Origin: a virus
Lineage: Duplodnaviria; Heunggongvirae; Uroviricota; Caudoviricetes
Length of the DNA: 10,411 bases
Virus record (IMG/VR): IMGVR_UViG_2690316210_000013
Direction: 5' to 3' (one strand)
Position numbers: made by a program
In this document: in pieces, positions 1-6,000 of the stretch
Layout of the letters: each line of letters opens with the position of its first letter
How positions within the stretch are numbered: the stretch's first letter is position 1

Positions 1-3000
1 ATTATCTGAACATAAAACACTATCAATAAGTTGGAGTCATTACCCGATATCCTGCTGAGAACATAAACACCCACGGATCGAGGCGTACGCTATCATGTTG
101 CTGTGCACCGCCCAGTTTATAATTGGCGATGGTATCGATATCCATGTACCACACTGGTAGGTTTCAAAAAACACAATAACCAATTGTATTTGAAGCAAAA
201 AACAAGACTTTGAGATGTTTTTTTGTACCTTTTTTTTATGTTTTTAACTGTCTGATTTTATTGAAATCTTTTTTAGTTTTGCAGAAGGAATTTTTTACTT
301 GATTGTAACTTTTTCGTTTTTTTGGGGCTAATTGACGCGCAATGCTGGGCGGGGAGCGCACAGCCAAAAAAACCGAAATTGACCGCTAATTACTGCCAAT
401 CATCATCGCTCTGATTGAGCGTAAATCATTCAGGTTATTCAGTTCTTCCTTCTGCTCTCGCTGACGTCAATAAATCCCATCATTGCGATCAACCTCATCC
501 TTAACCATTGATGCGAGCAGTTCTTCCAGTTTCTGCGCTGATAGCTTTACCTGGTGATCTTCAGCATCTTCCCGGGCTATTGTGGTTCGCGCAGTGGCTG
601 ATTTTGCTGACATCACCACAGGGGGCAGACGGACCATTGAACCATGGCCTCCGGAACAAATAAGGGCAAAAATAACAACCACTATCGAAAGCTCACAAAC
701 TAACCGCAGCACGTTCCTGCATACGACGTGTCTGCGGCATAATCCCAATGATTACTCCCTGACAGGATTTGCAGGCCACTCAATATCAGGTGCAGTTGAT
801 GTATCAACACGATTCAACAATACCCGATATTTATTCCATGCCTCCAGCAACGATCTTTCTTCCTCCGTTGCGATTTCCAGATCTACAGCATCCTGCAGTG
901 GCGCAATATACTCACTGAATTCCTGGATGTAGAACTGTGTGGTGACGGTCTTCCAGCCATTCGGCTCCTGCTGTATCGAAGCATACCAGGCTATTTCAAT
1001 ATCGCTATGCTGCGGCAGCATTTAACCCCTTGTAATTCATCGCCATAATTGATTTAATTCACAAATAAAACTATAATATGGTGAAATTAATGAAAAAAAA
1101 CACAGATGATGGGGCTAAAATTTACACACCACTTACCCTAAAGCTTTATGACTGGTGGGTTTTGGGAGTATCAAATCGGCTTGCATGGGGATGTCCTACA
1201 AAGGAACACCTTCTTCCACACTTTCTGGAACAATATCTTTCGGCGTCAGTGTTATATCCGCTGAAAGCGCCTTACCATTCACCTTACGGGCAGAAGGTAC
1301 CCGACCATTCGCATTATCATTAGCTGCTTTCACTGCTTTCGGTGTCGCGGCAAGCGTTTCAGATGCGCTGTTGGTTGCACTACTGAGCTGGACAATTCCT
1401 TTTTGTGCTGTCGTAGCGTCCTGAGCAGTATATTTCCCGTTAGCAAGGTCATAGGCTGCCTTTACCGACTTTGGCGTTGCCGCCAGCATTTCAGATGTGC
1501 TGTTGGTCGCGTTGCTAAGCTGAACTATCCCTTTCTGTGCTGTCGTTGCATCCTGTGCGGTGTATTTCCCGTTAGCCAGCTCATACGCGGCCTTAACGGC
1601 TTTTGGCGTTGCCGCCAGTGACTCGGAAGTGCTGTTAGTCGCACTGCTGAGCTGTACTATCCCCTTTTTCGTCGTGCTCGCATCCTCAAGCGCCACGGCG
1701 GATGCAATATCCTCTGCCCGTTTTGCCGCTGTCTCAGCGCGCGTTGCTGCAGATTCCGCCGTACTTTTGCTCTGAGCTGCTGCCGTCGCACTACCAGCAG
1801 CCTCTGTCGCCTTCGTGGATGCCGTCGTGGCGCTGCCCTTCGCTGCTGACGCCTGTCTGGTCGCCTCATCTTTTGAAGCAGACGCCGATGATGCCGATGA
1901 CGCCGCCGAACTGGCGGACGATGCGGCAGCCGTTTTTGAGGATTCTGCGCTGGTTTCCGACGCTTTCGCGTTCGTCTCGGATGTCTTCGCTGCGGAAGCA
2001 GACCTCGCTGCTGCGCTGGCCTGTACAGCGGCTTCGCCAGCCTTCGTTGTGGCTGTTGAAGCAGACGATGCAGCACTTTCTGCCGATTTTCCGGCGGCGG
2101 TGGCACTGGCTGAGGCCTGCCCGGCACTTGTTGACGCGGCACTGGCAGATAATGCAGCCGCTGTTTTTGAGTCTGCCGCAGCTGAGGCGCTCTGTCCCGC
2201 TGCCGTTTCAGAAGACCTGGCGTTCGTCTCGGACGTTTTTGCCGCCTTCGCAGAATTTGCTGCCGCCGTTGCCGAGGAAGCTGCGCTGCTGGCGCTCGAG
2301 GCTGCGTTCGTTTCTGATGATTTTGCCGCCTCTTTTGAAGCCGACGCATCCCGTGCTGAAGTGGCTGCTGATTGTTGTGACGCTGCGGCATTCGTTTCTG
2401 ACGTTTTCGCGGCACTGGCGCTGGTAGCTGCCGCGCTTTTTGATGACTCTGCAGCAGCAGCACTTTTTGCTGCTTCACGGGCCTTTGTCGATGCCGTTCC
2501 TGCGCTGGAAGACGCTGACTGAGCCGACGACGCGGCCTGTCCGGCTGACGTGCTGGCGGCAACGCCAAAGNTATCCCTTTCTGTGCTGTCGTTGCATCCT
2601 GTGCGGTGTATTTCCCGTTAGCCAGGTCATACGCGGCCTTAACGGCTTTTGGTGTTGCCGCCAGTGACTCGGAAGTGCTGTTAGTCGCACTACTGAGCTG
2701 TACTATCCCCTTTTTCGTCGTGCTCGCATCCTCAAGCGCCACGGCGGATGCAATATCCTCTGCCCGTTTTGCCGCTGTCTCAGCGCGCGTTGCTGCAGAT
2801 TCCGCCGTACTTTTGCTCTGAGCTGCTGCCGTCGCACTACCAGCAGCCTCTGTCGCCTTCGTGGATGCCGTCGTGGCGCTGCCCTTCGCTGCTGACGCCT
2901 GTCTGGTCGCCTCATCTTTTGAAGCAGACGCCGATGATGCCGATGACGCCGCCGAACTGGCGGACGATGCGGCAGCCGTTTTTGAGGATTCTGCACGGGT

Positions 3001-6000
3001 TTCCGACGCTTTCGCGTTCGTTTCGGATGTCTTCGCTGCGGAAGCTGACCTCGCTGCTGCCGTGGCCTGCTCAGTGGCTTCGCCAGCCTTCGTTGTGGCT
3101 GTTGAAGCGGATGATGCGGCGCTTTCTGCCGATTTTCCGGCGGCGGTGGCACTGGCTGAGGCCTGCCCGGCACTTGTTGACGCGGCACTGGCAGATAATG
3201 CAGCCGCTGTTTTTGAGTCTGCCGCAGCTGAGGCGCTCTGTCCCGCTGCCGTTTCAGAAGACCTGGCGTTCGTCTCGGACGTTTTTGCCGCCTTCGCAGA
3301 ATTTGCTGCCGCCGTTGCCGAGGAAGCTGCGCTGCTGGCGCTCGAGGCTGCGTTCGTTTCTGATGATTTTGCCGCCTCTTTTGAAGCCGACGCATCCCGG
3401 GCTGAGGTGGCAGCTTCTGACGCTTTCGTGGTCGCGGTGGATGCAGAAGTGGCTGCTGATTGTTGTGACGCTGCGGCATTCGTTTCTGACGTTTTCGCGG
3501 CACTGGCGCTGGTAGCTGCCGCGCTTTTTGATGACTCTGCAGCAGCAGCACTTTTTGCTGCTTCACGGGCCTTTGTCGATGCCGTTCCTGCGCTGGAAGA
3601 CGCTGACTGAGCCGACGAAGCGGCCTGTCCGGCTGACNGCAGCCGCTGTTTTTGAGCCTGCCGCAGCTGAGGCACTCTGTCCCGCTGCCGTTTCAGAAGA
3701 CCTGGCGTTCGTCTCGGACGTTTTGGCCGCCTTCGCAGAATTTGCAGCCGCCGTCGCCGAGGAAGCTGCGCTACTGGCGCTTGATGATGCGTTCGTTTCT
3801 GATGATTTTGCCGCCTCTTTTGAAGCCGACGCATCCCGTGCTGAAGTGGCTGCTTCTGACGCTTTCGTGGTCGCGGTGGATGCAGAAGTGGCTGCTGATT
3901 GTTGTGACGCTGCCGCATTCGTTTCTAACGTTTTCGCCGCACCGGCACTGGTAGCCGCCGCGCTTTTTGAGGACTCTGCAGCGGCAGCACTTTTTGAGGC
4001 TTCAGTGGCCTTTGTTGATGCCGTTCCTGCGCTGGAAGACGCTGACTGAGCCGACGACGCGGCCTGTCCGGCTGACGTGCTGGCGGCACGTGCTGAGGCT
4101 GCAGCATCGGTTGCATGAGTTGCCGCCTCGCTGGCTGATGCACTGGCATCGCTGGCTGATTTTTTCGCGGCTGCCGTATTCTGTGCAACCGCGGAGGCGT
4201 TACGTGACACCTCTTCCACCATCTGCTCAAAGCGGCGCAGTGCCTCCGGTCGGACATCATCCTCCGTCATGGCACCGAGAAAATCATTCAGCGTACCGGG
4301 TCGGGAATCTTCATACACGGTGATGGTCCCGGCATGTGACGGCGGGAATCCTTCCACCAACAGAATAACGCTGTACTGACCGTACTCAACGTCCATGCTG
4401 TAACGCCCGGCTTCATCCGGATTTTCTGAGGCCAGCGTGTTCACCACCACCGTGGTGCTGTTACGTTTTGCTTTCAGCTGGATTGTGCAGTTCTGTACCG
4501 GTTTTCCTGTGCCGTCTTTCAGTACACCTGAAATCTTTACTGCCATATTCACCCCACAAAAAAGCCCGCCTGAACCGGCGGGCTGTCATAACACTGTGTT
4601 ACCTGGCTAATCAGAATTTATAACCGACACCCACGATGAAACCGTCAGTGCGCCAGAGACGTGTTGCTGTGGCGACCGTCATCACTTCCGGTCAGCACAT
4701 CGTGCGTTTTCCCCTTATTGTCAGTTACGCGGATATAATCCCCGGAAAAAGTCGACACACGGCTGTAAGCCACACCCGCCATCGCATACGCGCTGAACCA
4801 TTCATTCACGCGCACAGACGGCCCCGCCATCACGCTGAACCAGCGGTTACGCACGGAATCTTCATGCCAGCGGGTATCGCTGTAACGGGTCAGCTGGCGA
4901 TTCTTGTCTCCTGCATAGCTGAATGACGTCACCAGCCCCAGCGTATCCGTAAACTCATAACGGTATTTCACGTTAATCCCGTTCAGATCATCACTGCCGG
5001 GAACGTTGGTCCGGGCATGAAGATACCCCGCGCTCAGCGTGGACTGATGTTCAGACGCCCATGCAGGCGCACCGGATACGGCCAGGCAAATGGCTGCGGA
5101 CAAAATGGCTGCACAAACTTTACGCATAATTACCTCTCGCTTTTCTGCAATAAAAAAGGCGTCATTCCTGACGCCATTTATTGGGGTTATAAATATTTCA
5201 ACGAATACTGATGCCGGAAGCCGCTTTTTTGGTCACAATCACCGTACAGTCGGTGATATTGCCTGCCCCCTGATTGCCTTTCTGGAAAATCTTAAACTCC
5301 AGAGTGACGCTACCACCACTAGGCATATCAATAACTGCACTGTAACTACCGGGAATGGCACCTTTAGTTTCTCTGGATGCGATTAATACGCCGTTTTTGC
5401 GAACTTCAAAACCATAACCCGTGTATCGCGTGCCTCCTGGGTTATTTCCGCTCCCCGGATCGTCATACGCTATACCGTTAAAAATAATGGGCGGAATAAT
5501 AATCTGGCGGTCAAAGTTATGATCATCGCTTATGGTGACTGTAACCGTCCCGTTTGGTGTTTCCGTGTTACCCCACGTACCAGCCTGTTTCGGAAATGAT
5601 TTGGATACAGCTTTAACGAAGTCACCTCTGACCTGAGTCGCCTCCAGCATGCCCTTAATCGTACAGTTTTCATTTACCGTGACATTGTTGAGCGTCCCGG
5701 CGTTCGCATTCACACTGCCACTGATATCCGCATTTTTAGCGGTCAGCTTTCCGTCCGGAGTCAGGGAAAATGCCGATGGATTTCCACCGCTGGTAATGGT
5801 GGGGGCCGTCAGGCGTTTCAGGAACACGTCGTTCATGAATATCTGATCGCCCTGACCAACAAACATCGGTTTTGTGTTGCCATTCGCAGGATTAACCATC
5901 GCAATCCTGTCCGCCGCCAGCAGCACCTGACTCTGCATGCCGTCAGGGGTGTTCTCAATACCGGCACCAATACCCGCGATATAAAGGCGTCCGTCCTGCA

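What the first reader, a model, noticed from the sequence alone, without database searches (positions are those of the whole stretch)
1526..4080. stf contains ~1.05-kb near-identical copies joined by single Ns with frame breaks: probable repeat misassembly
Copy 1 (1526-2570) and copy 2 (2572-3637) are near-identical at an offset of 1046 bp, and copy 2 carries a 42-bp insertion. A third partial, more divergent copy runs from 3639 to about 4080. Each junction is a single n. The true reading frame changes across both n positions: it is top-of-codon 1 mod 3 in 3639-4546, 0 mod 3 in 2572-3637 and 1 mod 3 in 1196-2570. The 20 nt before n2571 are the exact reverse complement of 1469-1488, the sense sequence of MLAATPK placed in the wrong orientation. 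Both breakpoints fall next to the same motif, GGCTGAC(GTGCTGGCGGCA). This is the signature of an assembly graph tangled by the short inverted and tandem repeats of a tail-fibre gene, possibly with reads from several similar prophages. The stf length and copy number in this window should not be trusted.
Basis: seen in the sequence. Interest (0 to 1): 0.5.

Follow-up and report, generated by a model that had tools for sequence, protein, structure and literature searches.

The report
Tail-fibre gene triplication is a scaffolding artefact
The apparent 1-kb tandem copies inside this prophage side-tail-fibre gene are three overlapping contig ends from at least two similar prophages, laid end to end by a scaffolder; it is an assembly artefact, not biology.

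Summary
Single Ns sit at 2571 and 3638. Copies lie at offsets of 1046 and 439 nt, copy 2 has a 42-bp indel, the frame shifts 1/0/1 across the Ns, and an exact 20-nt inverted piece precedes N2571. The misassembly interpretation is supported. The Ns split the window into four blocks: A (1-2570), B (2572-3637), C (3639-8547) and D (8594-10411). A, B and C each map colinearly onto overlapping parts of a single-copy stf in complete E. coli and Shigella sonnei genomes. Neither junction occurs in 5,426 complete E. coli genomes. Merging the blocks by homology removes 1.5 kb and restores one uninterrupted ORF. A and D match an ompW-locus E. coli prophage at 99.2-99.9%. C matches an S. sonnei prophage at 99.2%. 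B is a pure mosaic of those two alleles, and it carries the opposite allele to C at 26 of 26 informative sites. The scaffold therefore mixes at least two co-resident, or co-sampled, prophages. The stf length, copy number and frame in this window are not real. The source record was not found and reads could not be inspected.

The parts
1..44 (+). Right end of an IS1 copy. It marks the left edge of block A.
   Evidence: The 44-mer is found exactly at the 3' end of the IS1 transposase ORF in ten S. sonnei loci (Pfam DDE_Tnp_IS1).
1078..1232 (+). First ~51 codons of a class I SAM-dependent methyltransferase. The gene is cut at the 1231/1232 junction.
   Evidence: 45-1232 is 99.3-99.7% identical to the region beside the ompW-locus prophage in complete E. 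coli genomes, where the 222-aa gene is intact. The junction was read.
1196..2561 (-). Block A part of stf, of the type-1 (ompW-locus) allele. It covers about Stf residues 155-596 plus an 11-codon read-through tail (VPESVEEGVPL) from the antisense of the methyltransferase gene. It lacks the 42-bp segment.
   Evidence: One open frame. Three PF03406 repeats. 99.2-99.5% identity to stf of L016 and L020. The 42-bp-less allele also occurs in E. coli C5 and HZ13.
2562..2570 (.). Nine bases (ACGCCAAAG) that do not continue stf. Together with the preceding 11 nt they form an exact 20-nt inverted copy of 1469-1488.
   Evidence: Colinearity with the reference stf stops at 2561. The 30-mer that spans them is absent from GTDB representative genomes and from IMG/VR.
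2571..2571 (.). Single N joining block A to block B (scaffold join).
   Evidence: A 71-mer across it has no match in 5,426 complete E. coli genomes at E<=1e-12.
2572..3637 (-). Block B, a 1066-nt stf-internal contig covering about Stf residues 158-512. It is redundant with A and C and is a mosaic of type-2 and type-1 alleles.
   Evidence: One open frame. All 45 informative sites match one type or the other, in runs of 16, 13, 2, 13 and 1. No shuffle in 100,000 gave as few switches. B carries the opposite allele to C at 26 of 26 sites.
3638..3638 (.). Single N joining block B to block C (scaffold join).
   Evidence: A 71-mer across it has no match in 5,426 complete E. coli genomes.
3639..4546 (-). 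Block C part of stf, mostly the type-2 (S. sonnei-like) allele. It runs from the start codon at 4546-4544 through Stf residue 302.
   Evidence: PF08400 at residues 1-134, E=1.7e-72. One open frame. 3635-8547 is 99.2% identical to the S. sonnei loci.
4645..5127 (-). lom, a truncated 160-aa allele identical to that of S. sonnei. Part of block C.
   Evidence: PF06316, E=1.2e-95. The exact protein is found in S. sonnei Ss046 and 53G and in 1212 blocks of the collection. 645 of 645 nt are identical to L005.
5198..8657 (-). Tail tip gene J, interrupted by the 46-N gap. Bases 5198-8547 are type 2 with four small type-1 patches. Bases 8594-8657 are type 1.
   Evidence: Pfam J domains. All 13 SNP differences from S. 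sonnei equal the type-1 allele.
8548..8593 (.). 46-N scaffold gap inside J, joining block C to block D.
   Evidence: Type-1 references have 81 nt between the flanking 27-mers.
8594..10411 (-). Block D: the J start, a 112-aa lipobox ORF, tail assembly gene I and the K-like C40/JAB peptidase gene, all of the type-1 prophage.
   Evidence: 99.7-99.9% identity to L015, L016, L019 and L020, but only 91-95% to the S. sonnei loci. Pfam. Gene order.

Best explanation
The window is a scaffold from a short-read draft assembly of a Shigella or E. coli genome. It is not a continuous stretch of real DNA.

Four contigs were chained: A (1-2570), B (2572-3637), C (3639-8547) and D (8594-10411). The ends of A, B and C all lie inside the side-tail-fibre gene stf, and they cover overlapping parts of it: Stf residues about 155-596, 158-512 and 1-302. 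The overlaps differ by 2-6% and by a 42-bp indel. They differ because they come from paralogous stf genes of at least two lambdoid prophages. Type 1 is the ompW-locus prophage and type 2 is an S. sonnei-type prophage.

The scaffolder could not merge the overlaps, so it wrote the contigs head to tail with a single N between them. That creates an apparent 2.4-copy tandem repeat, adds about 1.5 kb of false gene length, and shifts the frame, because the offsets of 1046 and 439 nt are not multiples of three.

Shown here: the overlap geometry, the absence of the junctions elsewhere, the restored frame, the two-lineage origin, and the mosaic nature of B.

Inferred: read-pair scaffolding with a negative gap estimate produced the single Ns, and graph-path switching between the two alleles produced B's mosaic.

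What is biologically present is an ordinary lambda-type Stf. It has a PF08400 N-terminal domain, an Ala/Ser-rich shaft and three PF03406 repeats. The copy resident at this locus appears to be cut short by a 2.3-kb deletion at 1231/1232.
For: - Ns occur only at the copy boundaries and at one ordinary 46-N gap.
- On complete-genome stf genes, A, B and C map colinearly to overlapping intervals of one gene. On L001 these are 5431-6802, 5726-6791 and 6354-7371. The same holds on the S. sonnei loci and the ompW-locus loci.
- Stf in those genomes is a single uninterrupted ORF of 973-1035 aa. Its only direct repeat of 100 nt or more is the 132-nt unit.
- 71-mers across N2571 and N3638 have no match in 5,426 complete E. 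coli genomes at E<=1e-12. A control 71-mer across the 42-bp-less allele was found.
- The 30-mer at the end of A is absent from 185,579 GTDB representative genomes and from IMG/VR.
- Merging C and A by homology gives 1824 nt, a 607-aa ORF with no internal stop, colinear with type-1 Stf residues 1-610. Merging C and B gives 512 open codons, colinear with S. sonnei Stf 1-512 at 98.2%.
- A and D are 99.2-99.9% type 1 and C is 99.2% type 2, whereas the cross-comparisons give 91-95%.
- B matches one parent or the other at 45 of 45 informative sites, with 4 switches. B and C carry opposite alleles at 26 of 26 sites and differ nowhere else.
- Tail-fibre genes of different prophages are a documented cause of contig breaks in E. 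coli assemblies (PMC3045373).
- Public drafts contain many partial Stf proteins at contig ends, and 200-400-nt contigs that hold a single repeat unit.
Against: - No reads, coverage data or assembly metadata were available, and the source record was not found. The artefact is therefore inferred from comparison, not observed directly.
- The three local haplotypes around the 42-bp indel (A, B and C all differ there) are not fully explained by just two paralogues.
- B could be a genuine third, recombinant paralogue rather than a graph chimera.
- The statement that some scaffolders write one N for an unresolved or negative gap rests on my own knowledge. My literature searches for it were unproductive.
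Confidence: 0.93

Rival explanations
1. Genuine tandem duplication or triplication inside stf, for example by unequal recombination. The gene would be a frameshifted pseudogene, and the two Ns would merely be ambiguous base calls.
For: The copies are long and highly similar. stf does contain real tandem repeats at the 132-nt scale, and their number varies between genomes: 991 versus 1035 aa.
Against: - Both isolated Ns of a 10.4-kb window fall exactly on the copy boundaries.
- There is no homology at the junctions that could have mediated unequal crossing-over, and 9 foreign inverted bases sit at one of them.
- The junctions are absent from 5,426 complete genomes.
- The copies are not copies of each other. 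They carry alleles of two different prophage lineages in a complementary pattern.
- The frame breaks at both joins but is restored by a homology merge.
Confidence: 0.03
2. Still a scaffolding artefact, but block B, and the type-1 patches in C and J, are real. On this reading the genome holds three stf paralogues, one of them a natural recombinant made by gene conversion between co-resident prophages.
For: Three distinct local haplotypes exist around the 42-bp indel. C's version there is the insertion carrying type-1 SNPs, which cannot be built from k-mers of A plus the S. sonnei allele alone (reading). E. coli genomes carry a median of 3 and up to 17 matching places. All 13 J differences form 4 tight clusters, as gene-conversion tracts would.
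Against: B and C are exactly complementary at 26 of 26 sites and have no private changes. That pattern is expected from reciprocal path switching in an assembly graph and is not expected from non-reciprocal gene conversion. No complete genome holds a B-like allele; the best full-length match is 97.6%.
Confidence: 0.2
3. Still an artefact, but the two allele sets come from two organisms in one sample, for example S. sonnei mixed with an E. coli, rather than from two prophages of one genome.
For: Type-2 sequence is identical to S. sonnei over long stretches: 645 of 645 nt at lom, and 0 mismatches in most 250-nt bins of J. Type-1 sequence is 99.3-99.9% identical to E. coli ompW-locus prophages. 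I could not show that S. sonnei itself carries the type-1 prophage.
Against: Block A begins with an IS1 end and carries a private deletion junction. Both fit a Shigella-like genome that owns both prophages. Multiple lambdoid prophages per genome are the norm.
Confidence: 0.1

Closest known systems
Lambda-type side tail fibre Stf (prophage tail fibre with PF08400 N-terminal domain and PF03406 repeats)
   Same: The gene follows J and lom on the same strand. Residues 1-134 match PF08400 at E=1.7e-72. An Ala/Ser-rich shaft and three PF03406 units are present. Identity to annotated stf genes of complete genomes is 96-99%.
   Different: The receptor-binding C-terminal third and the downstream tfa chaperone gene are missing at this locus because of the 1231/1232 junction. 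The apparent extra 1.5 kb is not part of any real Stf.
Scaffold joins of overlapping, unmergeable contigs from paralogous repeats (false segmental duplication in draft assemblies)
   Same: A single N sits at each join. The neighbouring contigs overlap by 438-1045 nt on the reference but differ by 2-6%. One contig is redundant and chimeric. Prophage tail-fibre genes are a documented break point.
   Different: Nothing material. The assembler and scaffolder are unknown. The inverted 9-nt extension at the end of contig A is an extra oddity that I cannot attribute to a specific program.
Natural copy-number variation of the 44-aa PF03406 repeat in Stf
   Same: A real tandem repeat of period 132 nt, in three copies, lies in block A at about 1263-1690. 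It also occurs in complete genomes, where the alleles differ by one unit.
   Different: That variation involves 132-nt in-frame units. The finding concerns offsets of 1046 and 439 nt that are out of frame and bounded by Ns.

Membership tests
Lambda-type side tail fibre (Stf) | N-terminal prophage tail-fibre domain (PF08400) | tested here: met
   window:3639-4546:- residues 1-134, E=1.7e-72, full profile length.
Lambda-type side tail fibre (Stf) | Phage tail fibre repeats (PF03406) in the distal half | tested here: met
   Three stretches in window:1196-2569:-, E=1.6e-53. 132-nt period.
Lambda-type side tail fibre (Stf) | Position downstream of J and lom, followed by the tail fibre assembly gene tfa | tested here: not met
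   J and lom precede it. The C-terminal part of stf and tfa are absent: 2.3 kb is missing at 1231/1232 relative to L001 and L016. The gene family is not in doubt, but this copy is truncated.
Genuine tandem duplication | Determined bases and a reproducible junction sequence in independent assemblies | tested here: not met
   There is an N at both junctions. Junction 71-mers are absent from 5,426 complete E. coli genomes while a control was found.
Genuine tandem duplication | Copies derive from each other, that is, they share a lineage and differ only by private mutations | tested here: not met
   The copies carry alleles of two prophage lineages. B matches one parent or the other at 45 of 45 sites, and B and C are opposite at 26 of 26.
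Scaffolding artefact (overlapping contigs laid end to end) | Adjacent blocks map to overlapping intervals of a single-copy reference | tested here: met
Scaffolding artefact (overlapping contigs laid end to end) | Removing the overlap restores a normal gene | tested here: met
   C+A gives a 607-aa ORF with no internal stop. C+B gives 512 open codons colinear with S. sonnei Stf.
Scaffolding artefact (overlapping contigs laid end to end) | Read-level signature: no reads spanning the joins, abnormal depth, and discordant pairs | not testable with these tools
   No reads were available and the source record was not located.

The most novel reading that the evidence does not exclude
The mosaic of block B and the four type-1 patches in J are real gene-conversion tracts between two co-resident lambdoid prophages. 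The locus-resident prophage has truly lost its fibre tip and tfa through a 2.3-kb deletion. The window would then record ongoing exchange between tail modules of prophages in a Shigella-like genome. The tandem layout would still be an artefact.
Probability: 0.15. Interest if true: 0.2.

Novelty: not a real feature. Interest (0 to 1): 0.06.

Why it matters
The main value is as a caution. Gene calls, Stf length, repeat counts, frameshift or pseudogene calls, and prophage boundaries taken from this scaffold would all be wrong. The scaffold also joins J-lom-stf of one prophage to the flanks of another, so host-range or prophage-typing inferences from this window would be chimeric. There is no new biology in the triplication itself.

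Tried and rejected
- **Finding the source record.** An exact 30-mer at the end of A was searched in GTDB representative genomes and in IMG/VR. The deletion-junction 33-mer was searched in IMG/VR. Exact-protein look-ups were made for the 81-aa methyltransferase-fusion ORF and for the 327-aa N-containing Stf ORF. All were negative.\n- **Finding the truncated Stf in other assemblies.** Two protein searches were run. Their candidate lists were swamped by repeat-rich or very short tail-fibre fragments, and no hit carried the VPESVEEGVPL tail. This neither confirms nor refutes the 1231/1232 deletion.\n- **Citing the single-N convention of scaffolders.** The literature searches returned only irrelevant text matches. 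That point is marked as my own knowledge.\n- **A real invertible-segment or inversion explanation for the 20-nt inverted piece.** Rejected. Only 9 bases depart from stf, they abut an N, and the natural shared core is an 11-nt inverted repeat, TGCTGGCGGCA.\n- **The long alternative-frame ORFs** (for example 1657-3918, 753 aa). Dismissed as products of the GC-rich Ala/Ser codon bias and of the false concatenation.
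Full report
**Observation**

The window has non-ACGT characters at only three places: N at 2571, N at 3638, and a 46-N run at 8548-8593. These split it into four blocks: A (1-2570), B (2572-3637), C (3639-8547) and D (8594-10411).

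Gapped alignment shows that 1526-2549 matches 2572-3637 with 18 mismatches and one 42-nt gap. It also shows that 3200-3637 matches 3639-4076 with 26 mismatches and no gap. TRF reports the second pair as a 439-nt period with 2.0 copies.

Each block has exactly one open minus-strand frame. Bases 2551-2570 are the exact reverse complement of 1469-1488, where the sense reading is MLAATPK.

**What the region is**

On the minus strand the window carries the tail end of a lambdoid prophage (Pfam):

- a K-like C40/JAB peptidase gene
- tail assembly gene I
- a 112-aa lipobox ORF
- J, with six J-specific Pfam domains (plus a sub-threshold fn3 match)
- lom (PF06316)
- stf, with PF08400 at residues 1-134 of the C part and three PF03406 units in the A part

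Left of stf lie the first ~51 codons of a class I SAM-dependent methyltransferase, tail-fibre-assembly remnants, and the right end of IS1 at 1-44.

**Comparison with complete genomes**

I placed the blocks on stf of closed E. coli genomes (L001, L002, L015, L016, L020) and of closed S. sonnei genomes (L005-L013). A, B and C are each colinear with one single-copy gene, and they cover overlapping intervals of it. On L001, for example, the intervals are 5431-6802, 5726-6791 and 6354-7371.

In protein terms, C holds Stf residues 1-302, B about 158-512, and A about 155-596. In those genomes Stf is one uninterrupted ORF of 973-1035 aa. Its only direct repeat of 100 nt or more is the 132-nt PF03406 unit.

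Queries of 71 nt centred on N2571 and on N3638 found nothing in 5,426 complete E. coli genomes at E<=1e-12. A 71-nt control of the same design, placed across the 42-bp-less allele in A, was found full-length in two genomes. The 30-mer at the end of A is absent from GTDB representative genomes and from IMG/VR.

**Frame**

The A-to-C offsets are 1485 and 1527 nt, both multiples of three. The written offsets of 1046 and 439 nt are not. Splicing C to A at their longest shared exact run (72 nt) gives 1824 nt, a 607-aa ORF without internal stops, colinear with type-1 Stf residues 1-610. Splicing C to B gives 512 open codons, colinear with S. sonnei Stf 1-512 at 98.2%. The frame breaks therefore follow from the concatenation alone.

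**Origin of the pieces**

- Blocks A (45-2561) and D (8594-10411) are 99.2-99.9% identical to a prophage integrated beside ompW/yciE in many E. coli genomes. They are only 90-95% identical to the S. sonnei prophage.
- Block C is the reverse. It is 99.2% identical to S. sonnei and 91-95% identical to the ompW-locus prophage. The lom region is identical at 645 of 645 nt, and the 160-aa truncated Lom is an exact S. sonnei protein.
- A and C overlap by about 410-450 nt yet differ at 22 sites and by the 42-bp indel. They cannot be the same gene copy.
- Block B is a mosaic. At all 45 sites where A and the S. sonnei allele differ, B matches one or the other, in runs of 16, 13, 2, 13 and 1. It has no private change, and no shuffle in 100,000 gave as few switches.
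- Within the B/C overlap, B and C carry opposite alleles at 26 of 26 reference-informative sites and differ nowhere else.
- In J, all 13 SNP differences between the window and S. sonnei equal the type-1 allele, in four clusters.

This is the pattern expected when two similar paralogues are threaded inconsistently through an assembly graph. Natural gene conversion is a weaker alternative. Three local haplotypes around the 42-bp indel leave room for a third paralogue.

**Mechanism**

What is shown: the contigs end in stf, they overlap on the reference, they differ too much to merge, and Ns mark the joins.

What is inferred: a read-pair scaffolder linked them with a zero or negative gap estimate and wrote a single N. 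Several scaffolders behave this way to my own knowledge, but I found no citable text. The 9 odd bases at 2562-2570 extend a natural 11-nt inverted repeat, TGCTGGCGGCA. They look like a chimeric read or a faulty contig-end extension.

Tail-fibre genes of different prophages are documented causes of contig breaks in E. coli (PMC3045373). Public drafts are full of partial Stf fragments and of contigs that hold a single repeat unit.

**Rivals**

- A genuine tandem duplication is all but excluded, for the reasons above (confidence 0.03).
- B may be a real third, recombinant paralogue (0.2).
- The two allele sets may come from a mixed sample (0.1).

The last two change the detail but not the verdict that the tandem layout is false.

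**Limits**

No reads were available and the source record was not found. The 1231/1232 junction has no N and only 2 nt of microhomology. It was not seen in any complete E. coli genome, in IMG/VR or in the protein searches. I cannot say whether it is a real 2.3-kb deletion or another misjoin.

**Verdict**

The feature is an assembly artefact over an ordinary lambda-type stf. Interest is low.

Noticed in passing
window 1-44: The right terminal 44 nt of IS1 abut the prophage-side flank. The same 44-mer ends the IS1 transposase ORF in ten S. sonnei loci. This suggests an IS-rich, Shigella-like host, and it marks a contig that starts in a repeat.
   Followed up: partly
window 1231/1232: The methyltransferase gene (about codon 52, plus strand) is fused to the antisense of stf. 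2.3 kb present in complete genomes is missing: the Stf C-terminal ~395 aa, tfa, a small ORF and the rest of the methyltransferase gene. The join has 2 nt of microhomology (CA) and no N. It was not found in 5,426 complete E. coli genomes, IMG/VR or the protein searches. Whether it is a real deletion or a misjoin is unresolved.
   Followed up: partly
window 8548-8593 and flanks: The 46-N gap inside J separates S. sonnei-type sequence on the left from ompW-locus-type sequence on the right, so J as written is probably chimeric too. Type-1 references have 81 nt between the flanking 27-mers.
   Followed up: partly
window 4645-5127: lom encodes a 160-aa truncated protein instead of the usual 199 aa. 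It is identical to the S. sonnei allele and is on record in 1212 blocks of the public collection.
   Followed up: partly
window 7109-7142, 7895-7943, 8018-8033, 8504-8513: J differs from S. sonnei at 13 SNPs in four clusters, and all 13 equal the ompW-locus (type-1) allele. These are either collapsed-paralogue consensus or gene-conversion tracts.
   Followed up: partly
window about 2369 (A) versus 3404-3445 (B) and 3843-3884 (C): A 42-bp (14-aa) indel is flanked by a 12-nt direct repeat, GAAGTGGCTGCT. The short allele is natural: it also occurs in the Qin-locus stf of E. coli C5 and HZ13.
   Followed up: yes
window 1263-1690: There are three real tandem 132-nt (44-aa) PF03406 units. Complete genomes show the same array, and alleles of 991 and 1035 aa differ by one unit.
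   Followed up: yes
window 8724-9062 (minus strand): A 112-aa ORF with a lipobox-like N-terminus (LTGC) lies between I and J. It has no Pfam match. It is conserved at this position in ompW-locus prophages and is on record in 6742 blocks.
   Followed up: no
window 1657-3918 and other long ORFs in 1400-4300, both strands: Several ORFs of 100-750 aa lie in the wrong frames or on the plus strand over the Ala/Ser-rich shaft. They are by-products of the codon bias and of the false concatenation, and a gene caller could mistake them for genes.
   Followed up: partly
public protein collection: Hundreds of draft assemblies contain 200-400-nt contigs that encode only one PF03406 unit, and many contain partial Stf proteins at contig ends. 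stf is a systematic break point for short-read assemblies.
   Followed up: no
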